From the UHGV virus genome UHGV-0113213: DNA of 52,407 bases, one strand, 5' to 3'. Shown here piece after piece: positions 722 to 43,320 of this stretch; within the stretch, counting starts at the first letter, position 1; every line of letters begins with the position of its first letter. A model generated the notes under the pieces. It worked only from the letters and a program-made list of their open reading frames with translations, did not search any database and had not been told where the DNA came from. Position numbers and translations under genes: made by a program. The stretch is from a virus.

Positions 722-970
722 ATGAAAAACATGCTCAAAGTGGTATTATTCGCTGCGGCTGTTGCTCTTACTGGTTGTGCTGTTGACAAAGATGCTGCAT
801 TGCACAACCTGCCAAATAGCGGAGTAATTCCTCAAGAAATTGTCTATGATGCTAATGGTCATCTTGTCTATGACACTGAAAAACTTCCATATACTGGTCA
901 ATGGTGTCATGAACTAGATCACAATATGCGCCGCATCGGTAGCCCGTCGAATTGTGTAGCTAACTACTAA
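722..970 (+). CDS. Small lipoprotein (82 aa), opposite-strand moron between side fibre and J; candidate superinfection-exclusion lipoprotein
   Basis: N-terminal signal peptide with lipobox LTGC (MKNMLKVVLFAAAVALTGCA); own terminator; position analogous to Cor/Llp-type lipoprotein morons near tail fibre genes. Confidence 0.65.
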   Translation: MKNMLKVVLFAAAVALTGCAVDKDAALHNLPNSGVIPQEIVYDANGHLVYDTEKLPYTGQWCHELDHNMRRIGSPSNCVANY

Positions 971-976
971 AAGAAA

Positions 977-1002
977 ACCCCGCGCAAAGCGGGGTTATTT
1001 TT
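977..1002. terminator. Bidirectional rho-independent terminator between lipoprotein moron and J
   Basis: GC stem CCCCGC...GCGGGG flanked by A-run on one side and T-run on the other. Confidence 0.7.
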
Positions 1003-4000
1003 ATGACCACGATCCAGAGCTTCTTGTGACAAGGACTAGGCCTGGTCTCCTTATTGCCGCTGATGATGTATTTGTGTAGTTTTCTGTAACAGTTACGGAA
1101 ACATGCTGAGATGTAATACCTGAAACACAATGAACGGCAACGTCTGACTTGTGGGGCGTTGATGCCGCCCTTTCTATGTCTATAGTCTTTGAATTTCCGT
1201 TAATGTTTATGGTTACGTTAATGCGTCCCGACTGGTTATATGTATAGTAAGCAAGGTTATAAGGTATCATTACATAAACCGTTTTCGATAAAGCAGATGA
1301 TGATGAATCCCAATAATTTTTGGTTACACTCCTGCTACCTGACCCTGATTGCGCAGGGAATGTTGCCTCTGGAATTACTGACATACTCGCAACGTCACCA
1401 ACAAAGGATGTAGCTTCTACAGTGCCTCTGAATTTACCGTCAGTCGCGTAAACAGTACCGTTAAACACACCAGAATTAGCGTATACCGTGCCGCGTACTG
1501 TAACGTTGTTAAATGTAGCCCAGCCATCTTTAACTATTGCCCAACCTTGATCGCTACCGTTCCAATTGTATGACGTTATGACATTGCCTATTTTTGCATT
1601 GTCGATTGAACCGTCTTTAATAAACGCTTCGCGCACATACATTGCGCCGTTAGTGACATAGAAAGGTGTCTGATATGTGCCGTTTGCGGCAGTCATTAAC
1701 ACGAATCGGTCAACAAGGAAAATGCACTGCGATTGAACATCAGTACCGCTGCCAGTGAGGCCAAGTGACATTCCTGTTGCGTATTTCATACCGTTGTTAT
1801 CAGTGGCAATCTTGATTGAATATGACGCATCAACGTTACCTTTAAAATCGGTTAACGCTTTCGATGTTGTCTCGATCGCTGTTGTGTTTCCGTTAACGGT
1901 CACTTTCAATTGATCAATTTTTGTCGATAATGCCTCATCTGCCGTTGACATGGCCTGCGACCATTCCGTGATGCTTGAGTTTACATCGTCGAAAGATGCC
2001 GATATTTGAACAAATTTTTCAGCACTTGATGCCTCGTGAGTTGCGAGCGCCGTTGATATATCTGTTATTTTTGCTGAAATGTTTTCATTAATATTGGCTT
2101 CAAGTGATGCTATAGCCTCCGCGCGGGCCTGTGTTTCGTCTGCTATTGCTGTGTCAATCCTTGCTATTTCCGCTTTTGTTTTTATCTGGCCTTTCCTGTA
2201 TTTTGCCTCAATAACGGTGCTCATCTTGCTTTGCGCTATTGAGTTGTTGATAAGTGCAATCGAGGCGTTTTGCAGACTTGCTTTCGCCTGTTCTATCTTG
2301 TCACTGTTTTTATCAACATCACTTTCAACAGAACCAAGCTCCGCACTGATGCCTGATATTGCCTGGGCGCGAGCGCTTGATTCGTCGGCGATAGCTTGAT
2401 CAAGGCGGCTAACACTGGCATTTGTGCTATTTTCAAGCGTTGTTAAATCAGCTTTAACATCTGTTATTGCGTCGCTTCTTGCCTGCGTTTCATCTGATAT
2501 TGCTTTATCGAGACGAGAAACGCTCGCGTCAGTTTTGTTTTCCAGGCTGCTGATACTGGCGTTAACGTTGCTTATAGCCTCCGTTCTAGCCTGCGTTTCG
2601 GTTGCGATTGCTTTGTCAACGCGGGCGATTTCCCCTTTGGTGCTGGAGTCCATTGCGTTCATTTCTGCTGTGATGGTTTCCAGTGATTCCGCTGTCGCTT
2701 TTTTCTCATCTGCGATAACGTTGTCGATACGGTCAATCTGTGCCTTTGTTTCGTTGCGACCTTTCTTATATTGAGCGGTAAGAGTAACCCGCGTGTTAGT
2801 TTGAGCAAGCGAGTTGTTGATCAGAGCAAGCGAAGCGTTTTGTAAACTTGCTTTTGTCTGTGCCAGTTCGTTATTAACGTTTTCGTTTGATACCTCTAAT
2901 GAGTCTATTCTTACCTCATGTTTGCCTATTCCATCGGCGTTTTCTTCGACTTTTTTATAAAGGTCTTCGGTGTCTTTTTTAAGTGTATCTGTATCAGCTT
3001 TAAGGCCATCTGTAGCTGTTTTAAGGTCGGCGGTTGCTGTTTTAAGGTCGGCGGTTGCGCTTTCTATAATATCAGTGCGATCACCAAGATCCTTAATATC
3101 ACTTACCAATTCCTTAAATTGCTCTGAGTTCATCACGTCTTTGGTGACATAGTCGCTGATTTCATCGAAGTTTTCAGTTGGCTTACCTGACGCCTCAACG
3201 AAGTCTGACACGCCAAAGGCATTGCGCGTGCGCACATAAACGTAATAAGTATGGCCCGTGTTCATTCCACCGAACGTCCACTGATACCCGCGCCCGGTAA
3301 ACTGCGCAGACGTGGTTATTTTTGCAGGATCTGTAATCTGGTTTTTCCCTGCATAGTAGAACTCATACGCTGTATCAGTTGTTAGCGTTGTTTTGCTTAT
3401 CGGGTACACTGTAGCCTGAAATACACCTGGAACCCAGTTAACGCCTATTGGCGAGGCTGGTGCACCAATAACAAGATCAACAATACTTTCAGCGCCCTTC
3501 ATGCCAGTATCATTTCTTCCGCGAACGCCTAACGAATACGCGCCAGCGTCGATGCCATAAAAATCATAACTGTATTTCGTTGTTTCGTAGCTTTTAACAA
3601 CCGCACCATCTGTGTTATATATGCGGATCTCAAAGGTCATGCGATGTGTTGTTGTCTGTGTCTCCCATGTTGCGCGGCATTGAACCGTTTCAGATCCAAT
3701 GTTTACCACCTTCAGATTTTCAATGCTCGGCACGCGGAAGTGATTAAGCGTGTCGTTGTTGATTTCAAATATAGCGCCTTCATCGACTACTGCTTGTTTG
3801 TTCGGGTCATGTTGCGCTGCTTCGATGGTGTACACGCTGTTGTTTTCAGTTTCTGCTACGCTGATGATTCGACATAAAACGGGTTTTGCAGATTCGGTTG
3901 ATACAGCAAAAACAGTACCGTTCCGAATCCATGCCGGGGCTGCTGCCAGTGTGATTTTGTTCCCGTTAACACCAGTGATCTGATGTTTTTTAAATTTGCC

Positions 4001-5578
4001 ATCGCCATCAAGTAAACTGATGGTGTCGCCTGCTGCAATGTATTCTGAATCGACTTTATCGACCGTTATCACTTTCCCATTGTTCGCCACGATACGACCG
4101 CCTAAACGCGCGCCTGCGCGGTTATTGTCGAGGATCTCGATTATATCCCCTGGCGTAAAGTGAATCGCATCACGGGCCATTTTAAACGTGAATTTTGACG
4201 GCTCGCGTTTTGCTGTTTCTATCAGCCATTTACCAGCGCGGTGCGCTTGCCCGCGTGAAGTGCACCCGAACGCCTCCAACGTGGTTTCGTTATAACCATC
4301 ACGGGCGATTAGCTCATCATCTGCCACATACTCTTTTGATTGCTCCCAGCCGTTTTCCGGGTCAGTCCATGATACAATCACGGCGTTGTAGCATTCTGCT
4401 CGGGCGATACTTGAACGAGTGAACGCACCATCAACGACGTTTGCGTTTGTGATGGTGGCGATCGGGTCTTGTGGCGCATCAATCATCACGGTAAGGCGTT
4501 GTCCGTCCCATAACGCGATGCCTCGGAACATCCCGGCGATATTGTCCAGTAAATCGCGGGCGCTCATTTGCTCTGTAATGTAAGCATTAAGCGTCATGCG
4601 AGGCTCAAGGCCACCGTAACCATCATCAACCAACTGGTCGCAGTATCGGGAGAGCGTATATAATGCGCCGTCGTCAACGTCAATATAGCCAGCATGGCGG
4701 GCAAGACCGAAACGCTCGTTTTTAACCAGGTAACGGAAGATCCACGCGGGGTTATTGGTGTACGCCTTCTTGAAGCCGCCAAGCCACAAACCGGAATAAG
4801 TGCGCGTTTCCGGGCTATAGTTATCAGGAACGTCAACAATCAGCCCGCGCAGGTGATAAGTGCGGGTAGGTGTATCAGTGTACTGATCATGATCAATAAC
4901 CGCGCCAGCTACAGCTGTGTGGGGATATGACAAATTATCGTCGATTATTTCGCTGTAACTACTCCATCTCGTATCATTCTGCAATAGATCGCTTGTGCTA
5001 TCGGCCGTTACACGGCGAACGCGAATATCAAACGGCTTTTCATCTGGTGCATTGATAATATGCGCTTCAAGATATTCTCCTCTGATCTTGCCGGGGCCTA
5101 TAGTGACATCTTTAACAAGCGTCCACGTAGAAGAAGATGAAGGCTTGACATCAATCATCATCATAACCGATGTGTTATGTTGATTGCTTTGCTCGTCAGA
5201 TTGTACAAGTGAATCGACGCCGATATTCAGGCGAACGCGCGTAACGTTAGGATCTGATACAGTCCTGATTATTGGGGTATCGTGTTTCACCTGAGCGTTA
5301 ACAATAACGGTTGATTCAATGGCGTTAAAACCGTTAATAGGTGATTGATCTAACGTGCCGTTACGCCACGCCACGCTAACACCAGGGACACTTGTATTGC
5401 CGTTCGCGTCTGTAACAGGTGTATCATTAAGCATCACGCTATTTAATGGCGCTTTTGTATTTACAGGTCCATAAATCGGACCTTCAGAAATAATATCAAG
5501 TACACGATAAAATTGTTTATGGTATAGATTATCGTTAATTAAAGTCGGTGTTTTTGCTTTACCGCCGCCGCTACTCAT
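1001..5578 (-). CDS. J: Tail tip / host specificity protein J (central tail fibre), 1525 aa
   Basis: N-terminal ~830 aa and C-terminal ~300 aa resemble lambda J as recalled (e.g. LSVIDAISEGPI-like start, NGWE, AFGCTSRGQAHRAG motifs); follows I-K-L in lambda order. Confidence 0.9.
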   Translation of the reverse strand: MSSGGGKAKTPTLINDNLYHKQFYRVLDIISEGPIYGPVNTKAPLNSVMLNDTPVTDANGNTSVPGVSVAWRNGTLDQSPINGFNAIESTVIVNAQVKHDTPIIRTVSDPNVTRVRLNIGVDSLVQSDEQSNQHNTSVMMMIDVKPSSSSTWTLVKDVTIGPGKIRGEYLEAHIINAPDEKPFDIRVRRVTADSTSDLLQNDTRWSSYSEIIDDNLSYPHTAVAGAVIDHDQYTDTPTRTYHLRGLIVDVPDNYSPETRTYSGLWLGGFKKAYTNNPAWIFRYLVKNERFGLARHAGYIDVDDGALYTLSRYCDQLVDDGYGGLEPRMTLNAYITEQMSARDLLDNIAGMFRGIALWDGQRLTVMIDAPQDPIATITNANVVDGAFTRSSIARAECYNAVIVSWTDPENGWEQSKEYVADDELIARDGYNETTLEAFGCTSRGQAHRAGKWLIETAKREPSKFTFKMARDAIHFTPGDIIEILDNNRAGARLGGRIVANNGKVITVDKVDSEYIAAGDTISLLDGDGKFKKHQITGVNGNKITLAAAPAWIRNGTVFAVSTESAKPVLCRIISVAETENNSVYTIEAAQHDPNKQAVVDEGAIFEINNDTLNHFRVPSIENLKVVNIGSETVQCRATWETQTTTHRMTFEIRIYNTDGAVVKSYETTKYSYDFYGIDAGAYSLGVRGRNDTGMKGAESIVDLVIGAPASPIGVNWVPGVFQATVYPISKTTLTTDTAYEFYYAGKNQITDPAKITTSAQFTGRGYQWTFGGMNTGHTYYVYVRTRNAFGVSDFVEASGKPTENFDEISDYVTKDVMNSEQFKELVSDIKDLGDRTDIIESATADLKTATADLKTATDGLKADTDTLKKDTEDLYKKVEENADGIGKHEVRIDSLEVSNENVNNELAQTKASLQNASLALINNSLAQTNTRVTLTAQYKKGRNETKAQIDRIDNVIADEKKATAESLETITAEMNAMDSSTKGEIARVDKAIATETQARTEAISNVNASISSLENKTDASVSRLDKAISDETQARSDAITDVKADLTTLENSTNASVSRLDQAIADESSARAQAISGISAELGSVESDVDKNSDKIEQAKASLQNASIALINNSIAQSKMSTVIEAKYRKGQIKTKAEIARIDTAIADETQARAEAIASLEANINENISAKITDISTALATHEASSAEKFVQISASFDDVNSSITEWSQAMSTADEALSTKIDQLKVTVNGNTTAIETTSKALTDFKGNVDASYSIKIATDNNGMKYATGMSLGLTGSGTDVQSQCIFLVDRFVLMTAANGTYQTPFYVTNGAMYVREAFIKDGSIDNAKIGNVITSYNWNGSDQGWAIVKDGWATFNNVTVRGTVYANSGVFNGTVYATDGKFRGTVEATSFVGDVASMSVIPEATFPAQSGSGSRSVTKNYWDSSSSALSKTVYVMIPYNLAYYTYNQSGRINVTININGNSKTIDIERAASTPHKSDVAVHCVSGITSQHVSVTVTENYTNTSSAAIRRPGLVLVTRSSGSWS
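2080..3080. repeat. In-frame tandem repeat region inside J (approx 100-bp units plus short 21-bp direct repeats) encoding coiled-coil heptad-like repeats
   Basis: Repeated DNA units e.g. GCCTGCGTTTC.TC.G.TATTGCTTT at ~2130, 2480, 2590; protein repeats ETQAR..AI and TATADLKTATADLK; internal duplication ASLQNAS(L/I)ALINNS(L/I)AQ. Confidence 0.5.
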
Positions 5579-5592
5579 GGTTAATTCTCCTG

Positions 5593-6123
5593 TTAACTTA
5601 CAACGTCTAAGGCGTCTTTATTGTTTGTTGTGTCTATGCCTAACGATCCGACGTTTGAACCTACTTTCATTTCTCCTAATAGGATTGGCACTGGTCTACC
5701 CTGTCCTACCCTGTTTTCTATGCTGGTGTAAGTGTTATTAGTTATGGTGTTATCCTGCGCGCTTTCTGATGATGTTTTTACCTTCATGTTGCGAGACATA
5801 AAAATAGAAAAAGCGACGCTGACAACTGATATACCAATCATAATCCAGCCAATCACACCAATACCTGCAATACCACCTTCAACTATTGGCGCAATAATTA
5901 CCGTAGTTCCATCTGGATATTTGCTATTAACAGCCGCTGGCGCGGTCTTTTCGTTGTAATCTTTCCCGGCAATTCGTAAGCGCAAAGGTGTATTTAAAAA
6001 CGCCTTTTTAAATTCCTGATTCTGCGCGGTCAATAAGCGAAGCCCTTGCGCTGGCGTTTCAACGTTTAAACACACTTTGCTGTAATATCTTCGAAGATTG
6101 CCCGTAAATCTAAATTTGAGCAT
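5593..6123 (-). CDS. I: Tail assembly protein I
   Basis: 176 aa with C-terminal hydrophobic Gly-rich segment and conserved end (ILLGEMKVGSNV) like lambda I; between K and J. Confidence 0.75.
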   Translation of the reverse strand: MLKFRFTGNLRRYYSKVCLNVETPAQGLRLLTAQNQEFKKAFLNTPLRLRIAGKDYNEKTAPAAVNSKYPDGTTVIIAPIVEGGIAGIGVIGWIMIGISVVSVAFSIFMSRNMKVKTSSESAQDNTITNNTYTSIENRVGQGRPVPILLGEMKVGSNVGSLGIDTTNNKDALDVVS

Positions 6124-6797
6124 TTATCAGATCTCCATATTGAATGCGTTTGTCGAACATAAGCAGGCCGCATTTGCTCGCGGCGGCTTAATAATCCGGC
6201 ATGGTCATGATGCAAAACCGTGTTATCACCCAGGTAAATCATTGCGTGACACGGGTCAGCGCCTTTGAATGGCTGGCGAATGATCACATCACCAGGCTGT
6301 ATGCTTTGCGCATCAACCTGATAAAACCCGTTCAATGGCAGGTTTTTTAAATACAGGTTTTCACCGCGAAGCCACCAGCCATCAAGGCGCTCGAAGTCAG
6401 GCAGATCTACACCGCAAAGGTGATATGCGTCGCGGAAAAGCGCGTAACAGTCTGTCGTTCCGTGTACGAATTTACGGCCTAGCAGGTGCGCAACCGGACG
6501 GAATTTCCTGATCTTGCCGCCGGAATATAAAAACCAGGGTAGCCCGGAAATAACCTGTTGCTGTCGATCCCGCGCTGACAATACAGGAATATCACCAACG
6601 TGGGAGTGGAAAACGGCGGTTATAACGCCCAATTCGTCCGCCTTGATGTAATCGTCCGGCGAAATCTTGAAGCTGTTGTAAGGCGTTTCAGACACGTTAG
6701 CGCACGGGTAAAAATACTCGTTATCTATTACAAGTCCGCAAACTTCCTCAAACGGATGCGCGGCGGCATAACGCGACATTTTGTCTTCCATCCCCAT
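6066..6797 (-). CDS. K: Tail assembly protein K (MPN/JAMM plus NlpC/P60-like domains)
   Basis: Motifs HSHVGD (JAMM-like) and Cys-containing NlpC/P60-like C-terminus; start moved to ATG at 6795-6797, 2 nt after L stop; overlaps I start as in lambda. Confidence 0.8.
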   Translation of the reverse strand: MGMEDKMSRYAAAHPFEEVCGLVIDNEYFYPCANVSETPYNSFKISPDDYIKADELGVITAVFHSHVGDIPVLSARDRQQQVISGLPWFLYSGGKIRKFRPVAHLLGRKFVHGTTDCYALFRDAYHLCGVDLPDFERLDGWWLRGENLYLKNLPLNGFYQVDAQSIQPGDVIIRQPFKGADPCHAMIYLGDNTVLHHDHAGLLSRREQMRPAYVRQTHSIWRSDKCSNLDLRAIFEDITAKCV

Positions 6798-6799
6798 GA

Positions 6800-7504
6800 T
6801 TAACCTACCTTGCTGGAACCAGGGAAACAGGAGATCGGCAGTGCTGCCGGACGCGGGAAACGCAAACGGCAACCGCTAAGGCGGTGGCTGCATTTGTCTA
6901 ACGTTGGGTCACTTGTTGGTGTATCTTTATCAGTTGCGACCGGGCCGCCAGAATACATGCACCCGTCGCCTCTGTATTGCCACTGACAAACGTCAGCAAG
7001 GATGGTGCGCCCTGGGATAACGGCTTTATCTGCATCAATTGGCGTTGACAATTCATATTGCACCTGATCCGCTGTTTCTTCGCTCATTGCTTCAACGACG
7101 TAAAAAGATACAGCCTCAATAGATGGATCTGCGTCTGGATTGCCGTTAGGGAAGTTAACGGCGTCCAGGTATTTAACCTCCACCTGGCGGCGCGTAACCT
7201 TCATGCCTCTTAGGTCGTTGAAATCGTTATTCATCCCCGTAATGAGTCCGCCGATGTTGGCTACAACCATTTGAGGGCGCGAATAAACGCCTTCGTTTTT
7301 CATTTCGAAGCCAGTAGCCTCGATCGGGTAGCTGTTGTAAGCCACACCCTTCCAGATAACCGGGCCGTAATAGCCATTCGCGCCGGAATGGAAGCGGATA
7401 ACCTCGCCACCCAGGGGCGTGAGGTCTAATTCAAACAAGTCAATTACCGCGCCGACTCCGGCATCGACGGAATCAATAATCATTTCTCTCGGAATATTGC
7501 GCAT
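6800..7504 (-). CDS. L: Minor tail protein L
   Basis: 234 aa; similarity to lambda L as recalled (VTGM, VRRKV, RFLDAVNF-like, FPGR, C-x-W-x-YRGD-C, CSKxLSGC motifs). Confidence 0.85.
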   Translation of the reverse strand: MRNIPREMIIDSVDAGVGAVIDLFELDLTPLGGEVIRFHSGANGYYGPVIWKGVAYNSYPIEATGFEMKNEGVYSRPQMVVANIGGLITGMNNDFNDLRGMKVTRRQVEVKYLDAVNFPNGNPDADPSIEAVSFYVVEAMSEETADQVQYELSTPIDADKAVIPGRTILADVCQWQYRGDGCMYSGGPVATDKDTPTSDPTLDKCSHRLSGCRLRFPRPAALPISCFPGSSKVG

Positions 7505-7522
7505 TTTCTCACCTTGTCATTC

Positions 7523-7587
7523 TGTGATCTGCGTCACGCTAAATCATACCAAAATGGATTGATCGCGGTTTTTACAATATGTATATT
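7523..7587 (+). promoter_or_regulatory. Moron promoter: CRP-like site TGTGATCTGCGTCACG (7523-7538), TACCAAAATGGA element, -35 TTGATC (7559-7564), 17-bp spacer, -10 TATATT (7582-7587)
   Basis: Hexamers and spacing read directly; CRP-like centre ~63 bp upstream of predicted start site (class I-like position). Confidence 0.5.
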
Positions 7588-7633
7588 TTACTCAAACGGA
7601 AGCATAGTTAACAAAATGGCGCGGAGGTGCGTT

Positions 7634-7822
7634 ATGACTGAAAAGCTATGGAAGTTGACGGTATTCATGACAGACGGTAGGGAAAAGGTTATCGCCCTGT
7701 ATGACGACGAGGGTGAAGCATTGGTTGACGCGCTTTTACTTGCTGAGGATGACCGCCTTTTGGGATACCAGATCGAACCTGTCAAATATGAGGCTAACAA
7801 AAATGAAAAAATACAGTCTTGA
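7634..7822 (+). CDS. Small acidic protein (62 aa), moron gene 1 between L and M
   Basis: ATG with GGAGGTG RBS; strongly acidic composition (DDEGEALVDALLLAEDD); opposite strand to tail operon. Confidence 0.6.
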   Translation: MTEKLWKLTVFMTDGREKVIALYDDEGEALVDALLLAEDDRLLGYQIEPVKYEANKNEKIQS

Positions 7823-8150
7823 TGTGTGGTTAAGTGGTAGCAAGGAGTGTTTCGGATTATTTGATAGCGAAGAAGTAGCCCTGGAAGAAGGCAGGATTCT
7901 TGAATGTAGTTTAGGCCATCCAGTGAAATATGCTGCTAATCCGGTACAGATAGTTGATGAGGTGGAAGATATGAACCCGAAAGATATTAATGGTAGCTTC
8001 ACTGCTTATTATGCAGATTCTATGGACCAGTCTTGCCCTGGTGAAATACACGCAAAAGGTTTCCCGGCTGACGATCCAGAAGCAAAACGCGAATACGAAA
8101 AAGCGGCGAAAGATTTCTGTATCGATAACCTTTCAGCATTCGATAAATAA
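7803..8150 (+). CDS. Acidic protein (115 aa), moron gene 2
   Basis: Start MKKYSL overlaps end of previous gene in another frame; acidic; no recognisable family. Confidence 0.6.
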   Translation: MKKYSLDVWLSGSKECFGLFDSEEVALEEGRILECSLGHPVKYAANPVQIVDEVEDMNPKDINGSFTAYYADSMDQSCPGEIHAKGFPADDPEAKREYEKAAKDFCIDNLSAFDK

Positions 8151-8159
8151 GGCGGCAAC

Positions 8160-8408
8160 ATGGGGCGGCGCAATCACGGTGATTATGTGTACACGTTGAA
8201 ACAGGCCGCCCGCCTCATCGGTTATCATGAACACGAATTTATTGATTTGCTGATTGAGCGCGGGATACTGTACCAGGTCTGTTTAACGCTGTACCCGAAA
8301 GCGAAATACCTACATGAAAAGTTATTCATCATCATGACGGATGAAAACCAGGTTAACCATTCATTCGTCACTGATAAGGGCGTTAATTATCTGCGTGATA
8401 ACTTATAG
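8160..8408 (+). CDS. Small protein (82 aa) with possible HTH (YTLKQAARLIGYHEHEFIDLLIERGIL), moron gene 3
   Basis: ORF 10 nt after previous stop; helix-turn-helix-like segment by eye. Confidence 0.5.
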   Translation: MGRRNHGDYVYTLKQAARLIGYHEHEFIDLLIERGILYQVCLTLYPKAKYLHEKLFIIMTDENQVNHSFVTDKGVNYLRDNL

Positions 8409-8530
8409 GTGACTGATTATAAAAATAAAAGTTTTGGCGCTAATAATAATGGGGTTGATAGTATTTGGCGTTCATGCTGTAGATCTGGACTGGAAAACGA
8501 TAGCAGAAAATATAGCATTAATGGAAATAG

Positions 8531-8568
8531 AATAAAAATAACCCCGCTTCGCGCGGGGTCGTGTTTAT
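8531..8568. terminator. Bidirectional terminator after moron cassette (stem CCCCGC/GCGGGG; stronger U-run on minus strand)
   Basis: Hairpin with A-run upstream and T-rich run downstream on plus strand. Confidence 0.55.
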
Positions 8569-8762
8569 ACGCCATCAACCAAAAATAAAACCTCCTTCCC
8601 TTCCCGGGATCTACACCCAACGTACCCATCACCAACGTCGTGAAGATACCATATATCGCCGTTGTCAGCTTTTACAGTAAGGTCGTTGATCTCATAGTCG
8701 TCAAACAATGTAAAAGCGTAAGTTTTGTCAACTACACAAGTCCCGTACATAACAACCCCCAT
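8565..8762 (-). CDS. Small protein (65 aa) inserted between M and L; member of the small paralog family seen at 28676-29581
   Basis: Start overlaps M stop (TAATG); shares C...F...Y and D-x-G-D-x-W-Y motif pattern with the tandem paralogs. Confidence 0.5.
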   Translation of the reverse strand: MGVVMYGTCVVDKTYAFTLFDDYEINDLTVKADNGDIWYLHDVGDGYVGCRSREGKEVLFLVDGV

Positions 8763-9115
8763 TAGCCAACAACTTGCTCAAACGTTGCGTTTAGCGTGTA
8801 CAAAGGCCCGTCTTTAGTCATACTCCATTGCCGACAGACAAAAAGCCTTTGCACGTTATCCATTGACGGCGACCAGTAAAAAGCCTCGACCGCGCCGCGC
8901 GCCCTCAAGAATGCTTCCGCCTGGATTGCTACGTTTCCACCATCACCACATCCGGCGCTACTGCCTTTAAACACCAGGGTGTAGCTATCAAGCAATGGAT
9001 TGATACCTTTTACCTGTCTTTGCTCATAACCATCGCCCAGCTTAACAACAGATACGTCTGGCTTCCTGGTCACGCTGTAGCTTCTTTGCGGCGTCCATCT
9101 GAACACTTCCGGCAT
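8762..9115 (-). CDS. M: Minor tail protein M
   Basis: 117 aa; FRW, GDGY.QR, ATFEQVV motifs as in lambda M; GGGGG RBS. Confidence 0.8.
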   Translation of the reverse strand: MPEVFRWTPQRSYSVTRKPDVSVVKLGDGYEQRQVKGINPLLDSYTLVFKGSSAGCGDGGNVAIQAEAFLRARGAVEAFYWSPSMDNVQRLFVCRQWSMTKDGPLYTLNATFEQVVG

Positions 9116-9150
9116 AAAACCCCCACAAGTTACATTTTGTATATATCTTT

Positions 9151-9178
9151 ACGCGCTTCTACGCGAAAAATAAGATCA
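9151..9178. repeat. TACGCG direct-repeat element TTTACGCGCTTCTACGCGAAAAATA (copy 1)
   Basis: Near-identical 25-27-bp copy at 21418-21445; both lie just upstream of minus-strand structural genes (M, portal). Confidence 0.6.
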
Positions 9179-9200
9179 TTGTCACAATGATTATAGCTAG

Positions 9201-9242
9201 TTTACAAAATGGCTTCACATAGCACGCAACAAGATGTATATA
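9201..9242 (+). promoter_or_regulatory. Moron promoter: TTTACAAAATGGC element, -35 TTCACA (9214-9219), 17-bp spacer, -10 TATATA (9237-9242)
   Basis: Read directly; about 40 bp upstream of the 9283 start codon. Confidence 0.5.
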
Positions 9243-9282
9243 GAAAGCAAGAAGAAAGTAGTACCAACGAAGGAGGCCCAAA

Positions 9283-9438
9283 ATGAAACGCTATGTAGTA
9301 GTAATGCTAAATAACGCATTCGAACAAGTGGAAATAGCAATCGTTAAGGGTTTCGACGACGCATTCAAATACGGTCAATTCATGATGAATGCGAAAGAAG
9401 ATGAATACCGGGACTTCTTCCTGAAGGCACTTAACTAA
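9283..9438 (+). CDS. Small protein (51 aa), moron gene between M and H (not in ORF track, below 60 aa)
   Basis: ATG preceded by AAGGAGG RBS; MKRYVVVMLNNAFEQVEIAIVKGFDDAFKYGQFMMNAKEDEYRDFFLKALN. Confidence 0.5.
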   Translation: MKRYVVVMLNNAFEQVEIAIVKGFDDAFKYGQFMMNAKEDEYRDFFLKALN

Positions 9439-9455
9439 GGATGATGGGGTGAGTT

Positions 9456-9710
9456 ATGAAACTGGTAGCGATTGACAGAAATCTGAAAGCACAGAAAAAC
9501 GCACAGGACCGGATCATCAAGAAAGGTAAGGAATTACTTAAAGCCTTTCTGAGAAAAGAAGTTTACCCCAAAAAGTTACGCGACGGTTACGGATACAAAA
9601 TGGATATCAATCTTGATTGGAGGCTGTTTAGCGAAGATTTGAAGGTTTGGTTAATTGTTGAGCACCGTGCCTATAACAAGTTATGTGGCGTGAAAGGCAC
9701 TCATAAGTGA
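9456..9710 (+). CDS. Small basic protein (84 aa), second gene of M-H moron
   Basis: RBS GGGGTGAG; Lys/Arg-rich; followed by terminator. Confidence 0.55.
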   Translation: MKLVAIDRNLKAQKNAQDRIIKKGKELLKAFLRKEVYPKKLRDGYGYKMDINLDWRLFSEDLKVWLIVEHRAYNKLCGVKGTHK

Positions 9711-9761
9711 GTCGAGATATTCGAAAGGGGATATATCGCGCGGAATGGTCGTTTATAAATA

Positions 9762-9801
9762 CGAAAAATAACCCCGGCATTGCACCGGGGTTTAGTTTAT
9801 T
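9762..9801. terminator. Bidirectional rho-independent terminator (stem CCCCGG/CCGGGG) after moron and after H
   Basis: Hairpin flanked by A-run and T-run; H stop codon lies in the T-run. Confidence 0.65.
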
Positions 9802-12139
9802 TGCGGCGAGGTTGCAACATTCCGCCTGGTCTTTGAGATTCCCTTGTTATCATTTTCATGGCTACACGTTCCATTGTTAATTCAAGTCTGCGGCTGTCTT
9901 CGTCGCTGAATCCGTTCGTGGTCTGAATGCTGATACTGACAGGCATACTAATACCGCCACCGCCGCCAATATCACGGCCCGGAATAACTCTGCCGTTCTC
10001 GCCAGGGATCATATATTGATTGCCGTTAGATGTCTGGAATAGCTCCGGCCTGTTGTGTTCCCCTACGCGGTACATATTACCACCAATGACGCTACCACCA
10101 TTAAAGCGACCGCCGCCGAAAATTGACGTAGCCAGCGACATGATCGCAGTGAGCGCCGCCGAACCAGCCGCCGCCCAGCTACCGCCAGTTGACGCCGCAG
10201 TTGCCGCCGCTGCTGGGGCCGCCGCCGCAGCAATGCTTCCCTGAGCTGCTACCGCGCTTGCTGTTGTACTTGTTTGCGTGGCCTTGCTTTGTGTCTCCAT
10301 CATGATCTGATCTGCTATCCAGTTTGCAGCTATGTCTGAGAGTCTGTTACCGATATTGCCGAGTATATTGCTTCCTAAGTTAGCAAAAACATCACTCAAT
10401 GATTGAGTGCCGTTTAACAGGCCAACAAGCGCATTACTCATTCCGCCTTTAAGGCCATTAACACAATCACCGATAAGGCCGTTTGTGTCGCTTTGCGCCT
10501 GCCATTGTTCCCATTTCAGATCGCGGATCTGTTGCTCATAGGCTAACAATTCCTGTTTCTGTTGCGCTTCAGTAGCGCCCAGGTCTATAAGCATTTGCTT
10601 ACGGATGGCCCATTCATTTTGCGCCTGCTGGATGGGGTCAACTTCGCCTTTTAGCTGATCCATCGGGCTTACTATTTGTGACCATTTATCACGCAATTCA
10701 TCTACCGGAATTTGTGCTAATTCTTCTTTCAGTTCCTTGCCGATCCCTTTTTGCGCGGCGCGGTACTCAAGGAGCGTGATTTTACCCTGGGCAAATGCAG
10801 CATCAATGGCCTTGCCGTTCTCCAACGCTTTGCGCATGGCGGCGGCGTCTTTGTTGTACTGATCAGAAACGCTTATACCTTTGTCACCAAGCCGATCAGC
10901 TTCCGATTTCTTCTCTTTTTTCTGTTTTTTCGGCTTGTCTACTGGCTTGTCGAATCCGGTAATCGCTCCGTCATTGGCAGCATTCTGTTCATTTTTCCTT
11001 GCTTCTTCTGTAGCCTGGATTGCTGCGGTCAGATCATCCTGTAGTTGCATGACCTTGCCAACGGTCTTCCCGTATTTCTTCTCGTAGTTGCTGTTATATT
11101 CGTCGGTTTGCTCTCCTACTACCTCCTTCATCCATTTATAGCCATCCATTAGCGCCTTGATTGGCGTCACCATTGCGATGATCTTCTCTGCCACCTCTCC
11201 AGCCTTAACAGCCACATCATCAAACATGTCGATAAATTCGCTACCAGCCGTTTTGAGTGTGTCGAAGCAGGTTTTAGCGAATTTAGCGCCATCGCCAAGC
11301 CCTTTAACGCCTTTCGTGATCAAGTCGATAGCTGAAACAACGCCATCTGACACGCCAAAAAGATCATCCAACTGCTCAACAAGGCCCATAATTTCTACTT
11401 TAAGCTCATTGATAGCCATGCCGGATGTGCGCGGCAACTGAGCAAACTTATCGTTTGTTTCCTGCGTAGCCGCCTGTATTGCGTTAACCATCCTTTCAGC
11501 CGTGATCTTGCCGTCCAGCATTTCGGCGCGGAACTGGCCCATTGATAATCCCATATGGCGGGCCATTGTTTGTACGATGGTCGGCGTATTTTCAAGCAGG
11601 CTGTTAAATTCTTCGGCACGAAGAACACCGCCGTCGATAGACTGACGGAATTGACGCATTGAGTTAGACATCTGTTCCGCTGACGCGCCGCCTAATGCAC
11701 CCATTTTCTGAATAGTGCCAACCAGGTTAAGCAATTGCCCTTCCGTAGCGGAGGTGTTTTTTAGTGAGATAGCCAGGCCTTGCCATAATTCGCCAGTATC
11801 TTTCAGGCTCTGCCCCGTCTCCCTGGATATTGCTTTCAGGCCGTCGAAAACCCGTCCGGCGGACTCCGCATCGCCCGTAAGCATTTTGATTTTTACGCGA
11901 AGCATTTTTGCTTGCTCCGCCATATCCATAAATTGGCGCACAGCCTCCGCAGCAATTAGCAGATGGATAACCCTGGTCAGTGCCTTGATGGATGTTTTCA
12001 GGGTGTTTACCTGGCGGTCAGCCTGTTTTGCGCCGCGCTCTATACGATCAAAGGCCTGGTCTGCCTGTCGTTGTGCAACGAGAAGTTGACCAGTTTTCGC
12101 ATCAACTTCGTAATAAATTGTACCTACACTGGTAGCCAT
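9797..12139 (-). CDS. H: Tail tape measure protein H (780 aa)
   Basis: Long alpha-helical/Ala-Gln-rich protein with Gly-rich C-terminal region; position upstream of M-L-K-I-J. Confidence 0.85.
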   Translation of the reverse strand: MATSVGTIYYEVDAKTGQLLVAQRQADQAFDRIERGAKQADRQVNTLKTSIKALTRVIHLLIAAEAVRQFMDMAEQAKMLRVKIKMLTGDAESAGRVFDGLKAISRETGQSLKDTGELWQGLAISLKNTSATEGQLLNLVGTIQKMGALGGASAEQMSNSMRQFRQSIDGGVLRAEEFNSLLENTPTIVQTMARHMGLSMGQFRAEMLDGKITAERMVNAIQAATQETNDKFAQLPRTSGMAINELKVEIMGLVEQLDDLFGVSDGVVSAIDLITKGVKGLGDGAKFAKTCFDTLKTAGSEFIDMFDDVAVKAGEVAEKIIAMVTPIKALMDGYKWMKEVVGEQTDEYNSNYEKKYGKTVGKVMQLQDDLTAAIQATEEARKNEQNAANDGAITGFDKPVDKPKKQKKEKKSEADRLGDKGISVSDQYNKDAAAMRKALENGKAIDAAFAQGKITLLEYRAAQKGIGKELKEELAQIPVDELRDKWSQIVSPMDQLKGEVDPIQQAQNEWAIRKQMLIDLGATEAQQKQELLAYEQQIRDLKWEQWQAQSDTNGLIGDCVNGLKGGMSNALVGLLNGTQSLSDVFANLGSNILGNIGNRLSDIAANWIADQIMMETQSKATQTSTTASAVAAQGSIAAAAAPAAAATAASTGGSWAAAGSAALTAIMSLATSIFGGGRFNGGSVIGGNMYRVGEHNRPELFQTSNGNQYMIPGENGRVIPGRDIGGGGGISMPVSISIQTTNGFSDEDSRRLELTMERVAMKMITRESQRPGGMLQPRRK

Positions 12140-12159
12140 GATTTAACCTCATGCAAAAA

Positions 12160-12221
12160 TGTGATCTGTGTATCTATTTTATACAAAATGGCTTTACTTC
12201 AACGACTCCATTTTGTATAAG
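12160..12221 (+). promoter_or_regulatory. Lipoprotein moron promoter: CRP-like TGTGATCTGTGTATCT (12160-12175), TACAAAATGGC, -35 TTTACT (12193-12198), 17-bp spacer, -10 TATAAG (12216-12221)
   Basis: Read directly; CRP-like centre ~61 bp upstream of predicted start site. Confidence 0.45.
12179..12220. repeat. Perfect 13-bp inverted repeat TTATACAAAATGG / CCATTTTGTATAA with 16-bp spacer in the H / lipoprotein divergent region
   Basis: Arms at 12179-12191 and 12208-12220 are exact reverse complements. Confidence 0.75.
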
Positions 12222-28612: not shown

Positions 28613-28674
28613 TTTATAACAAAATGGCACTGCCGAAACAATGCCATTTCGTAAACCTTGTGATACAGATCACA
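28613..28674 (-). promoter_or_regulatory. Promoter with near-consensus CRP-like palindrome TGTGATCTGTATCACA (28659-28674), TTTACGAAATGGCA element, -35 TTGTTT (28636-28641), 17 bp, -10 TATAAA (28613-28618)
   Basis: Read on minus strand; CRP-like centre ~61 bp upstream of predicted start. Confidence 0.5.
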
Positions 28675-43185: not shown

Positions 43186-43285
43186 TGATGCAAGTCACAA
43201 AACGTGTATTTTAAGCCTTGATCTTAAAATTCCATTTTGTAAACTTGCAGACAAGGTAAGGCCATACTTGCAAAGACGCAAGGAA
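43186..43285. promoter_or_regulatory. Immunity-region operator/promoter segment: inverted repeats CTTGCAGACAAG (43244-43255) and CTTGCAAAGACGCAAG (43267-43282) plus TACAAAATGG element (43232-43244)
   Basis: Palindromes read directly; exact operator boundaries not resolved. Confidence 0.4.
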
Positions 43286-43320
43286 AAAGATAACGGAAGG
43301 CACAAAAAGGCACTTACCTT

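What the first reader, a model, noticed from the sequence alone, without database searches (positions are those of the whole stretch)
7505..8570. Three-gene opposite-strand moron between tail genes L and M encoding acidic proteins and an HTH protein
A plus-strand cassette (7634-7822, 7803-8150, 8160-8408) interrupts the minus-strand M to L order that is contiguous in lambda. It has its own promoter (-35 TTGATC, -10 TATATT) preceded by a CRP-like palindrome, and ends in a bidirectional hairpin. The first two products are strongly acidic, as DNA mimics or anti-restriction proteins often are; the third has an HTH-like segment. This is a good candidate for a lysogenic-conversion, defence or anti-defence module whose function cannot be read from sequence.
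Basis: partly seen in the sequence, partly recalled or inferred. Interest (0 to 1): 0.72.

Follow-up and report, generated by a model that had tools for sequence, protein, structure and literature searches.

The report
CRP-linked accessory operon inside tail genes
Between two tail genes of an E. coli prophage of the mEp021 (mEpimmI) group lies a small opposite-strand operon, present in every relative examined, with a promoter that looks cAMP-CRP-dependent; it encodes a small DNA-binding KilAC-domain protein, two fast-evolving acidic proteins and a decayed membrane-peptide gene, and its function is still untested.

Summary
The three plus-strand ORFs, the TTGATC-17-TATATT promoter, the palindrome TGTGATCTGCGTCACG and the bidirectional hairpin are all at the stated coordinates. 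The genes are real: dN/dS is 0.05-0.3.

The window is an E. coli prophage of the mEpimmI (mEp021) group. Every relative examined (about 55 loci) carries this cassette between L and M, so it is a fixed module of the group, not a recent insertion.

In 54 loci the palindrome sits 35-36 nt before the -35. Only its four central bases vary, which is the footprint of a dimeric CRP-type site at about -62.

- **g3** is a stand-alone KilAC (Pfam ANT) domain. Its confident model has a MerR/excisionase-type winged-HTH fold.
- **g1 and the N-half of g2** are small acidic beta-beta-alpha-beta domains that evolve fast and have no known homologues.
- **The C-half of g2** is highly conserved, has its own invariant Shine-Dalgarno and ATG, and occurs alone elsewhere.
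- **A fourth gene**, a small hydrophobic peptide, follows g3 in relatives. Here its ATG is mutated to ATA.

No evidence supports a DNA mimic, an anti-restriction protein or a structural role.

Best reading (inferred): a prophage-expressed, catabolite-gated regulatory or conflict operon built around the KilAC protein. It is a new member of a known kind, of moderate interest.

The parts
7523..7538 (.). CRP-type palindrome TGTGATCTGCGTCACG, centre 7530.5, about -62 to -63.5 from the inferred transcription start
   Evidence: exact TGTGA-N6-TCAC occurs 8 times in the window against 0.34 expected; the half-sites are invariant, only the 4 central bases vary in 21 distinct versions from 54 loci, and the offset to the -35 is fixed at 35/36 nt.
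7559..7587 (+). Sigma-70-type promoter: -35 TTGATC (7559-7564), 17-nt spacer, -10 TATATT (7582-7587). Inferred start near 7594.
   Evidence: 9 of 12 matches. The hexamers are conserved in all aligned relatives. The transcription start has not been mapped.
7634..7822 (+). g1: 62-aa acidic protein (pI 4.43). The conserved core is residues 1-51 and the C-terminal tail is variable. GGAGGTG Shine-Dalgarno at 7622-7628.
   Evidence: phrog_29559, function unknown. dN/dS 0.21-0.32 and dN 0.15-0.21. Weak similarity to the g2 N-domain (BLASTP E 7e-5; hhalign E 0.004, probability 8%).
7803..7970 (+). g2 N-domain (residues 1-56): variable beta-beta-alpha-beta domain found in discrete allelic types
   Evidence: AlphaFold pLDDT about 90 over residues 1-50. 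Alignment of 45 homologues. dN/dS 0.23. Foldseek hits to small phage proteins, some named DUF7336, at E 0.006-0.1.
7959..8150 (+). g2 C-module: internal Shine-Dalgarno GAGGTGG (7959-7965), ATG for Met57 (7971-7973), then a 59-residue highly conserved acidic module ending at the g2 stop
   Evidence: The sequence (A/G)AGGTGGAAGA(G/T)ATG is invariant in 12 loci. The same module is a stand-alone 59-aa CDS in E. coli MFDS1019527 and a stand-alone 56-aa protein in an unrelated phage contig. dN/dS 0.13. The model has low confidence here, pLDDT 44-62.
8160..8408 (+). g3: 82-aa stand-alone KilAC (Pfam ANT) domain protein with a MerR/excisionase-type winged HTH
8419..8535 (+). g4 remnant: a small hydrophobic-peptide gene. 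Relatives start with ATG (MKIEVLALIIMGLIVFGVHA..., 38-45 aa). Here codon 1 is ATA (8419-8421), leaving only a TTG at 8434 or an ATG at 8449. Its Shine-Dalgarno AGGTGA (8407-8412) overlaps the g3 stop.
   Evidence: Substitutions between relatives are mostly synonymous (by eye, about 9 synonymous to 3 non-synonymous between mEp021 and mEp010). Two other hydrophobic peptide types (23-24 aa) occupy this position in other relatives.
8540..8560 (.). Bidirectional intrinsic-terminator hairpin that closes the cassette and faces the minus-strand tail operon
   Evidence: Conserved in relatives. Annotated as a terminator on both strands in mEp021.

Best explanation
The region is a single, tightly packed operon: g1, g2 (with its internal g2C start), g3 and g4. 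It is fixed between tail genes L and M in all mEpimmI-group phages examined. It is read against the tail operon from its own sigma-70 promoter and is closed by a bidirectional terminator.

Inferred regulation. The promoter has a weak -35 and a CRP-type site about 62 bp upstream, the class I activator position, and no repressor-operator-like sequence. The operon is therefore probably transcribed from the prophage when cAMP-CRP is high. It would be silenced by convergent late transcription during lytic growth.

Inferred function. The conserved centre is g3, a stand-alone KilAC winged-HTH protein. It most likely acts as a small regulator of the lysogeny/induction circuit or of the host SOS response, by binding DNA or a partner such as RecA or the phage repressor. 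The conserved acidic g2C module and the fast-evolving acidic domains g1 and g2N would be protein-binding modulators or specificity subunits. The small membrane peptide would be an accessory effector, and it is already inactivated in this lineage.

Shown: the anatomy, the conservation pattern, the domain and the fold. Inferred: transcription in the lysogen, CRP dependence and every molecular activity.
For: Operon anatomy and coding..

Fixed position. The cassette is present at this position in all 11 fetched relatives. g3 is 88-100% identical in 44 IMG/VR contigs, and in 41 of them the palindrome-promoter element is found upstream of g3. The cassette region matches in 35 of 5,426 complete E. 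coli genomes, 19 of them over at least 80% of the query.

Binding-site footprint. Only the 4 central bases of TGTGATC-NNNN-TCAC vary, and the offset to the -35 is fixed. The core matches 9 of 10 positions of TGTGA-N6-TCACA. The same palindrome is about 20-fold enriched in this prophage (8 found, 0.34 expected). It lies at -59.5 to -63.5 from predicted starts of at least four promoters, plus two more by hand.

g3. It passes the Pfam KilAC threshold and has a confident winged-HTH model. It is the only antirepressor-like gene annotated in mEp021. It is near-core for the group (PMC11893012).

What KilAC domains do. In Listeria phage protein AriS the KilAC domain alone blocks the SOS response, probably through RecA (PMC9043618).

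Group biology. mEpimmI lysogens are mostly not UV-inducible, and their repressor lacks the Ala-Gly cleavage site (PMC11893012). A non-SOS input to induction, or SOS damping, would fit this group.

Different rates of change. The promoter block, g2C and g3 are 81-99% identical across relatives. g1 and g2N are 55-77% identical and have 5-10 times the dN of L and M.
Against: No transcript, CRP-binding or phenotype data exist.

The predicted CRP centre (-63.5 here, -62.5 in half of the relatives) is 1-2 bp off the canonical -61.5, and the start site is only inferred. The palindrome could instead be bound by a phage protein.

g3 lacks the N-terminal AntA, Bro-N or Rha domain of all characterised KilAC proteins. 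It is only distantly similar to the Listeria KilAC domain (hhalign E 0.055).

A winged HTH argues for DNA binding, but the DNA target is unknown.

The repressor's missing cleavage site already explains UV non-inducibility without g3.

g1, g2 and g4 have no homologues of known function, so their roles are guesses.

The region is also a hotspot for extra small ORFs. That fits a cargo/conflict locus as well as a regulatory one.
Confidence: 0.42

Rival explanations
1. Prophage-encoded defence or superinfection-exclusion module of the sensor-plus-membrane-effector type. The fast-evolving soluble proteins g1 and g2 would recognise proteins of incoming phages. The small hydrophobic peptide g4 would be the membrane effector, and g3 the regulator. 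In this window the system would be crippled by loss of the g4 start codon.
For: - The opposite-strand, self-contained operon is typical of lysogen-expressed morons.
- The neighbouring plus-strand islands carry conflict genes: a ParE-like toxin with an upstream partner at 9283-9710, and an Lpp-type exclusion lipoprotein at 722-970 whose family was shown to exclude phages (PMC11893012).
- g1 and g2N occur in discrete, divergent allelic types.
- Three alternative hydrophobic peptide types occupy the g4 slot.
- Extra small ORFs come and go.
Against: - No PADLOC, Pfam or NCBIfam defence model matches.
- The cassette is fixed in all relatives rather than present or absent like typical defence cargo.
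- dN/dS is below 1 throughout.
- g4 is dispensable in at least six loci.
- The g2C relative in another phage has no KilAC neighbour.
Confidence: 0.22
2. Anti-defence module. g1 and g2 would be acidic DNA mimics or inhibitors of restriction, CRISPR or other host defences, made early after infection from a repressor-independent promoter.
For: - pI 4.4 and 21-23% acidic residues, among the most acidic 5% of this prophage's ORFs.
- Small size, narrow distribution and fast protein evolution.
- The g2C-like stand-alone protein sits in a cluster of small ORFs in another phage.
Against: - There is no Ocr, ArdA or Acr family match.
- The acidity is moderate and is shared with the tail protein L (pI 4.75) and the 65-aa tail-operon ORF (pI 4.17).
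- The position against the late operon with a catabolite-type site is unusual for early anti-defence genes.
- The best-conserved parts are g2C and g3, not the acidic N-domains.
Confidence: 0.13
3. A true antirepressor module, a second immunity region analogous to P22 immI embedded in late genes. g3 would bind the non-cleavable Rep repressor and trigger induction when cAMP-CRP rises. g1 and g2 would restrain or tune it.
For: - Rep lacks the Ala-Gly cleavage site and lysogens are not UV-inducible, so a non-SOS inducer is needed (PMC11893012).
- g3 is the only antirepressor-like gene annotated.
- Rep (about 96% similar across 48 phages) and g3 (88-100% identical) are both unusually uniform across the group, as expected for a partner pair.
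- P22 immI is a precedent for an antirepressor unit among late genes (own knowledge, not tested here).
Against: - KilAC alone has never been shown to bind a repressor. Its only assayed activity is SOS inhibition.
- The winged-HTH fold points to DNA binding.
- A promoter active in the lysogen would make the lysogen unstable unless further control exists, and no such control was identified.
Confidence: 0.13
4. Tail-assembly chaperones or minor virion components that happen to be encoded on the other strand.
For: Location inside the tail gene cluster. Small acidic proteins are common among assembly chaperones.
Against: - Opposite strand with its own promoter and terminator.
- No similarity to structural or chaperone families in Pfam, PHROGs or fold searches.
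- Not flagged among the mass-spectrometry-supported virion proteins in the mEp021 record.
- Lower G+C than the tail genes.
Confidence: 0.03

Closest known systems
Phage morons (Hendrix/Juhala sense), for example the HK97 gp15 or lambda lom/bor units inserted among late genes
   Same: An autonomous unit lying between two genes that are adjacent in lambda (M and L). It has its own promoter-like and terminator-like signals and lower G+C than its neighbours, and it is oriented so that it can be expressed from the prophage.
   Different: It is not a sporadic insertion. It is present at the same place in every relative examined, with a near-core gene (g3). It is a four-gene operon rather than a single gene. 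Expression from the prophage has not been demonstrated.
AriS-type KilAC (Pfam PF03374 ANT) regulators of temperate phages (Listeria phi10403S AriS, A118 Gp42)
   Same: g3 passes the Pfam KilAC threshold and aligns over residues 11-81 with the KilAC domain of A118 Gp42. In that family the KilAC domain alone is enough to damp the host SOS response.
   Different: g3 is only the KilAC domain (82 aa). It has no AntA, Bro-N or Rha N-terminal domain and lacks about the first 22 model positions. Direct similarity is weak (hhalign E 0.055). The host is Gram-negative. The gene sits among tail genes rather than in the early region. No activity has been tested.
Small MerR/excisionase/AlpA/Cox-type winged-HTH proteins of mobile elements
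Class I CRP-dependent promoters (lac type)
   Same: TGTGA-N6-TCAC core (9 of 10 positions), a weak -35, and a site centred about 62 bp upstream of the inferred start. The conservation pattern is that of a dimer-binding site.
   Different: The predicted centre is -63.5 or -62.5 rather than -61.5. The start is not mapped and CRP binding is not shown. The same palindrome is about 20-fold enriched across the prophage, so a phage-encoded binder is not excluded.
P22 immI (mnt-arc-ant), a second immunity region embedded in the late region
   Same: A regulatory unit labelled antirepressor, placed among late or tail genes and carrying its own promoter.
   Different: No sequence or domain relationship (P22 Ant is not a KilAC protein). 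There are no Arc/Mnt-type repressors. The comparison rests on recalled knowledge and was not tested here.

Membership tests
Moron (autonomous accessory unit in a phage late region) | Lies between two genes that are adjacent in related phages | tested here: met
   L (PF05100) and M (PF05939) flank it and are adjacent in lambda (established knowledge). Within its own group the cassette is never absent, so no 'empty site' relative was found.
Moron (autonomous accessory unit in a phage late region) | Own promoter and own terminator | tested here: inconclusive
   Promoter consensus match 9 of 12 plus strict conservation. Hairpin with U-tract on both strands. Neither has been verified by transcript mapping.
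Moron (autonomous accessory unit in a phage late region) | Base composition distinct from neighbours | tested here: met
   41-44% G+C against 51-52% in L and M.
Moron (autonomous accessory unit in a phage late region) | Expressed from the repressed prophage | not testable with these tools
   Needs RNA-seq or 5' RACE of a lysogen.
Pfam PF03374 ANT / KilAC domain | Profile score at or above the curated gathering threshold | tested here: met
   g3 scores 29.4 bits against a cutoff of 25.3, with model positions 23-105 of 108 matched. RefSeq names it a KilAC domain-containing protein.
AriS-like dual-function SOS regulators | Two-domain architecture: N-terminal AntA/Bro-N/pRha plus C-terminal KilAC | tested here: not met
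   g3 is 82 aa and consists of KilAC only. A118 Gp42 has AntA plus ANT.
AriS-like dual-function SOS regulators | KilAC-dependent inhibition of the SOS response | not testable with these tools
   Activity is known only for Listeria proteins (PMC9043618).
Class I CRP-dependent promoter | 22-bp site with TGTGA-N6-TCACA core | tested here: met
   TGTGATCTGCGTCACG matches 9 of 10 core positions. The half-sites are invariant across 21 distinct versions.
Class I CRP-dependent promoter | Site centred near -61.5 (or a further helical turn upstream) of the transcription start | tested here: inconclusive
   Centre at -63.5 here and -62.5 in relatives, measured from a start inferred 7 nt after the -10. 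The start is not mapped.
Class I CRP-dependent promoter | CRP-cAMP binding and crp-dependent transcription | not testable with these tools
   Needs EMSA or footprinting and reporter assays.
DNA-mimic anti-restriction proteins (Ocr, ArdA and similar) | Sequence or fold similarity to a known mimic | tested here: not met
DNA-mimic anti-restriction proteins (Ocr, ArdA and similar) | Very high negative charge density arranged like DNA phosphates | tested here: inconclusive
   pI 4.4 and 21-23% D+E, about the 5th percentile in this phage. The spatial charge pattern was not analysed. The C-half of the g2 model has low confidence.
Type II toxin-antitoxin pair | Recognisable toxin or antitoxin domain in g1-g3 | tested here: not met
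   None in Pfam, NCBIfam or PADLOC. The ParE-like toxin lies in the neighbouring island, not in this cassette.
DUF7336 small phage proteins | Profile match or clear fold match | tested here: inconclusive
   No hmmscan hit at E<=0.1. Foldseek hits to several DUF7336 proteins only at E 0.01-0.1, TM-score relative to the target 0.65-0.7.

The most novel reading that the evidence does not exclude
A minimal, stand-alone KilAC protein is placed under cAMP-CRP control inside the tail region. It would be the missing non-SOS input into the lysis-lysogeny switch of a whole, gut-prevalent family of UV-non-inducible coliphages. It would either damp RecA/SOS or counteract the non-cleavable repressor according to carbon status. 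The conserved acidic g2C module would be its partner, and the variable g1 and g2N domains would set specificity. The roughly 20-fold enrichment of CRP-type palindromes at about -60 of several phage promoters would mean that the phage's transcription programme as a whole is wired to host catabolite signalling.
Probability: 0.15. Interest if true: 0.75.

Novelty: new member of a known kind. Interest (0 to 1): 0.45.

Why it matters
mEpimmI phages are reported to be as common as lambdoid phages in human faecal E. coli. How their prophages are induced is unknown, because their repressor lacks the RecA-dependent cleavage site.

This cassette holds the only antirepressor-family gene annotated in mEp021, and it has a binding-site footprint that points to catabolite control. 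It is therefore a concrete, testable candidate for a nutritional input into induction or SOS damping.

It also defines three uncharacterised small-protein families (g1/g2N, g2C and the hydrophobic peptides) with a clear conserved-versus-variable pattern. These are useful material for screens of phage-phage or phage-host conflict.

If it turns out to be only an ordinary lysogen-expressed cargo operon, the practical gain is better annotation. The RefSeq name 'transporter' for g1 homologues has no support here (no family or transporter-domain match, 51-69-aa soluble acidic proteins), and the fourth gene and the internal start of g2 are not annotated in the RefSeq prophage records (the fourth gene is annotated in several mEp phage GenBank records).

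Tried and rejected
- **Family searches.** Pfam, PHROGs, NCBIfam and PADLOC scans of g1 and g2 gave only function-unknown PHROGs.
- **Exhaustive profile search.** The g2 family against 1.8 billion representatives gave 4 clusters below 1e-10, so the family is confined to these phages.
- **Paralogy of g1 and g2N.** BLASTP E 7e-5 but hhalign probability only 8%. I keep this as 'possible'.
- **Ipe.** I asked whether the haemolysis-inducing Ipe protein of mEp021 is in this cassette. It is not. ipe is mEp021_29 in the early region.
- **Solved structures.** A PDB sequence search with g3 found nothing.
- **Positive selection in g2N.** Median dN/dS is 0.23 and the maximum 0.59, so there is no evidence for it.
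- **Known RNAs.** Rfam found nothing at gathering thresholds in the window and nothing relevant at E<=1 in 7300-9900.
- **LexA box or Rep-operator-like repeats in 7505-7633.** None seen by eye. The likely Rep operators (CTTGC-N6-GCAAG type near 43250-43300) are my guess only.
- **The over-represented motif T(T/A)TACAAAATGG / CCATTTTGTAWA.** I could not find published nut or operator sequences. My best reading is that it forms the spacer end plus -10 of a class of phage promoters, but this is unresolved.
- **Does the g2C module always travel with a KilAC gene?** It does not in the one unrelated contig examined.
Full report
**What the window is.** The 1.4-kb region 7400-8800 is 99.6-99.9% identical to prophages in seven complete E. 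coli genomes, for example strain M1/5. It is 83-88% identical to phages mEp013, mEp021, mEp010, mEp515, mEp554, mEp044 and MagusPhagus. These are the Nus-dependent, non-lambdoid 'mEpimmI' coliphages described in PMC11893012. The window is essentially one such prophage, with its late genes on the minus strand. The tail genes are J 1001-5578, I 5593-6123, K 6066-6872, L 6800-7504, M 8762-9115 and the tape-measure gene 9797-12139.

**Checking the observation.**
- The three plus-strand ORFs (7634-7822, 7803-8150, 8160-8408) are the same CDS that RefSeq calls in strain M1/5.
- They are real genes. Against 11 relatives, dN/dS is 0.21-0.32 for g1, 0.18-0.33 for g2 and 0.04-0.2 in most comparisons (up to 0.36) for g3.
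- The promoter TTGATC-17-TATATT (7559-7587) is found by the scan. The scan also shows that such matches occur at chance frequency, 6 found against 5.3 expected, so the match alone proves nothing.
- The evidence that counts is comparative. In an alignment of 13 loci, and then in 54 loci, the -10 is invariant and the -35 nearly so.
- The palindrome TGTGATCTGCGTCACG (7523-7538) always lies 35 or 36 nt before the -35.
- Among 21 distinct versions of this site, TGTGATC and TCAC are invariant apart from single exceptions. Only the four central bases vary freely. That is the footprint expected of a dimeric protein-binding site, and the core matches the CRP consensus TGTGA-N6-TCACA at 9 of 10 positions.
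- With the start inferred 7 nt after the -10, the centre lies at -63.5, or -62.5 in relatives that lack one base. This is close to, but not exactly, the class I position of -61.5.
- The hairpin at 8540-8560 is terminator-like on both strands. MFE of the 56-nt stretch 8525-8580 that contains it is -16.3 and -19.4 kcal/mol, and the U-tract is better on the minus strand.
- g1 and g2 are acidic: pI 4.43 and 4.41, 23% and 21% D+E. That is about the most acidic 5% of ORFs in this prophage. Tail protein L (pI 4.75) and the neighbouring 65-aa ORF (pI 4.17) are acidic too.
- The cassette has lower G+C (41-44%) than L and M (51-52%).

1. A conserved 65-aa minus-strand gene (8565-8762) lies between M and the cassette. 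It belongs to phrog_3249, has dN/dS about 0.07, and its start overlaps the M stop as TAATG.
2. The operon has a fourth gene. In most relatives a small hydrophobic peptide follows g3 by 10 nt, with its Shine-Dalgarno overlapping the g3 stop: MKIEVLALIIMGLIVFGVHA..., 38-45 aa. Substitutions between relatives are mostly synonymous. Other relatives carry different hydrophobic peptides of 23-24 aa in that slot. In this window and five or six near-identical loci the ATG is ATA (8419-8421), so the gene is probably no longer translated efficiently.
3. g2 is composite. Its N-half (residues 1-56) is variable and occurs in discrete allelic types. Its C-half is nearly invariant and is preceded by an invariant (A/G)AGGTGGAAGA(G/T)ATG, that is, a Shine-Dalgarno plus Met57. 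The C-module exists as a stand-alone 59-aa CDS in one E. coli prophage. It also exists as a stand-alone 56-aa protein among small ORFs of an unrelated phage contig with a Mu-type portal.
4. Some relatives have an extra 75-93-aa ORF between g2 and g3, or a 67-aa ORF after g3. None has a family match.

**What the proteins are.**
- g3 matches Pfam ANT/KilAC above the curated threshold, 29.4 against 25.3 bits.
- Its AlphaFold model is confident, pLDDT 86 and pTM 0.73.
- g3 is 88-100% identical in 44 viral contigs.
- Its synonymous divergence (dS 0.06-0.44) is well below that of g1, g2, L and M (0.6-1.1).
- The g2 model is confident only for the N-domain (beta-beta-alpha-beta, pLDDT about 90). The conserved C-module is predicted poorly, pLDDT 44-62, which may mean that it folds on a partner.
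- g1 may be a paralogue of the g2 N-domain (BLASTP E 7e-5), but the profile comparison is weak.
- The g1 and g2 families are confined to these E. coli phages.

**How it evolves.** Sliding identity across 12 loci shows two conserved blocks: the L start with the promoter region (0.89-0.99) and g2C with g3 (0.81-0.97). They flank a variable stretch covering g1 and g2N (0.55-0.77). g1 and g2 have 5-10 times the non-synonymous divergence of L and M at similar dS. There is no sign of pervasive positive selection: g2N has median dN/dS 0.23 and g2C 0.13. The picture is allele exchange between conserved flanks together with relaxed constraint.

**Regulatory context.** This part goes beyond the finding.
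- Exact TGTGA-N6-TCAC occurs 8 times in the window against 0.34 expected.
- With one mismatch allowed it occurs 25 times against 5.25 expected.
- The near-perfect sites are mostly intergenic. They lie upstream of the cassette, of the Lpp-type exclusion lipoprotein gene 722-970, of the third plus-strand island at 12267, and at several early-region intergenic positions, including the region just upstream of a boxA-like TGCTCTTTAAA.
- For four of them a sigma-70-like promoter is predicted with the palindrome centre at -59.5 to -63.5. Two more fit by hand: the site at 12159 lies at -61.5 with a -10 of TATAAG, and the site at 28659 lies near -60.
- A second motif, T(T/A)TACAAAATGG (reverse CCATTTTGTAWA), is also strongly over-represented, 15 against 0.82 and 16 against 1.06. 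Copies flank the cassette promoter at 7548 and 7608. In several places the reverse form supplies the end of the spacer and the -10 hexamer. What binds it, if anything, is unresolved.
- These data make a CRP-type activator site the most economical reading. A phage-encoded binder is not excluded.

**Mechanism.**
- *Shown:* a compact operon, fixed in the group, with a conserved promoter and palindrome, a terminator, one KilAC winged-HTH protein, two or three acidic small-protein modules and a membrane-peptide slot.
- *Inferred:* it is transcribed from the prophage. It has its own promoter, no operator-like repeats by eye, and an orientation against the late operon. Transcription would be stimulated by cAMP-CRP and shut off by convergent Q-dependent late transcription.
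- *For g3:* the only experimental knowledge about KilAC domains in the searchable literature is that the KilAC domain of Listeria phage protein AriS, expressed alone, blocks the SOS response, probably by acting on RecA. Homologues with different N-domains do the same (PMC9043618).
- *For the group:* mEpimmI lysogens are mostly not UV-inducible, and their CI-like repressor lacks the Ala-Gly cleavage site (PMC11893012). g3 is the only antirepressor-family gene annotated in mEp021.
- *My preferred reading:* g3 is a small regulator acting on the lysogeny/induction circuit or on SOS. g2C would be a conserved acidic partner, and g1 and g2N variable modulators. Confidence is 0.42, because nothing beyond anatomy and domain assignment is demonstrated. 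g3 is only distantly similar to the Listeria domain (hhalign E 0.055) and lacks the N-terminal domain of all characterised family members.

**Rivals.**
- *Defence or exclusion module (0.22).* A soluble sensor plus a membrane peptide would fit the neighbourhood (ParE-like toxin island, Lpp exclusion gene), the allelic variation and the membrane-peptide slot. It has no family support, and the cassette is fixed rather than sporadic.
- *A true antirepressor unit (0.13).* This is attractive because Rep is non-cleavable and both Rep and g3 are unusually uniform. However, KilAC has never been shown to bind a repressor.
- *A structural or chaperone role (0.03).* This is unlikely. The genes are on the opposite strand, have no homology to such proteins, and are not flagged as virion proteins in the mEp021 record.

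**Comparison with what is known, and verdict.**
- The unit behaves like a moron, but it is a fixed, multi-gene one.
- g3 is a member of Pfam KilAC but not of the two-domain AriS architecture.
- The promoter looks like a class I CRP promoter, with the spacing unverified.
- The sequences are already in databases as hypothetical proteins, and the mEpimmI paper lists a 'KilAC-like antirepressor' among near-core genes. No function or regulation has been described.
- I rate it a new member of a known kind, with interest 0.45.
- The more novel reading is a catabolite-gated minimal KilAC protein acting as the non-SOS input to induction in a common gut phage family, within a phage-wide CRP-type promoter pattern. 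I give it about 0.15 probability. It would be clearly interesting if true.

Noticed in passing
window 8419-8535 (+): A fourth cassette gene: a small hydrophobic peptide (38-45 aa in relatives, MKIEVLALIIMGLIVFGVHA...). Its ATG is ATA in this window and in five or six near-identical loci. Other relatives carry 23-24-aa hydrophobic peptides (MCEHYVLEVIIIIIGLLCILLSTL or MDKVIENVLVVAGAIAIVYAFLN) in the same slot.
   Followed up: partly
window 7959-7973 (+), inside g2: An invariant internal Shine-Dalgarno plus ATG, (A/G)AGGTGGAAGA(G/T)ATG, lies before Met57 of g2. The C-terminal 59 residues may also be made as a separate product. The same module is a stand-alone gene in E. coli MFDS1019527 (L011 1800-1979) and in an unrelated phage contig (L014 5001-5171).
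   Followed up: partly
window 590, 7523, 12159, 28659, 31685, 34923, 38326, 39933, 43184, 46618: CRP-consensus palindromes are about 20-fold enriched in the prophage: exact TGTGA-N6-TCAC 8 times against 0.34 expected. Most are intergenic, and several lie about 60 bp upstream of predicted promoter starts. These include the Lpp exclusion gene, the third plus-strand island, early-region promoters and the immunity region.
   Followed up: partly
window 584, 7548, 7608, 9201, 12180/12208, 28616/28644, 34880/34947, 38283, 42389, 43232, 47213 and others: The motif T(T/A)TACAAAATGG (reverse CCATTTTGTAWA) is strongly over-represented, 15 against 0.82 expected. It occurs twice as a 12-bp inverted repeat with a 16-nt spacer (12180-12219 and 28616-28655). 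Its reverse form often supplies the spacer end and -10 of predicted promoters. No published operator or nut sequence could be found for comparison.
   Followed up: partly
window 9283-9438 and 9456-9710 (+), hairpin 9770-9792: A second opposite-strand island lies between M and the tape-measure gene. It holds a very conserved 51-aa protein (dN/dS about 0.03) followed by a ParE-like toxin (PF24732, 44 bits), with its own bidirectional terminator. It looks like a toxin-antitoxin pair. Relatives add HNH or zinc-ribbon genes here.
   Followed up: partly
window 8565-8762 (-): A conserved 65-aa acidic ORF (phrog_3249, function unknown, dN/dS about 0.07) is translationally coupled to M through a TAATG overlap. 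It is an extra gene of the tail operon that lambda lacks.
   Followed up: partly
window 722-970 (+): A lipoprotein (MKNMLKVVLFAAAVALTGC...) lies downstream of J on the opposite strand. It corresponds to the Lpp superinfection-exclusion genes tested in PMC11893012. A CRP-like palindrome lies at 590-605, about 40 bp before a possible start (class II-like position).
   Followed up: partly
window 7543-7551 and 7585-7614 (-): Two promoter-like elements on the minus strand point at L: an extended -10 TGGTATGAT (7551-7543) and TTGTTA-18-TAAAAT (7614-7585). Both are conserved in relatives. If real, L-K-I-J could have their own promoter, overlapping the cassette promoter and the palindrome.
   Followed up: no
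window 6800-7400 versus 7400-8800: Mosaic boundary. The window is 99.9% identical to E. coli M1/5 across 7400-8800, but its L gene is only about 88% identical in nucleotides (97% in protein) to that of M1/5.
   Followed up: no
g1 homologues in RefSeq (for example WP_086611599.1, L004 3234-3389): NCBI names g1 homologues 'transporter'. No NCBIfam or Pfam model supports this, and the proteins are 51-69-aa soluble acidic proteins. The name looks like an annotation error that has been propagated.
   Followed up: partly
window 8160-8408 (g3): Synonymous divergence of g3 (dS 0.06-0.44) is several-fold lower than in the flanking genes (0.6-1.1). This could reflect recent recombinational spread of the g2C-g3 block or an additional constraint on the nucleotide sequence, for example on the antisense late transcript. 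It is not resolved.
   Followed up: no
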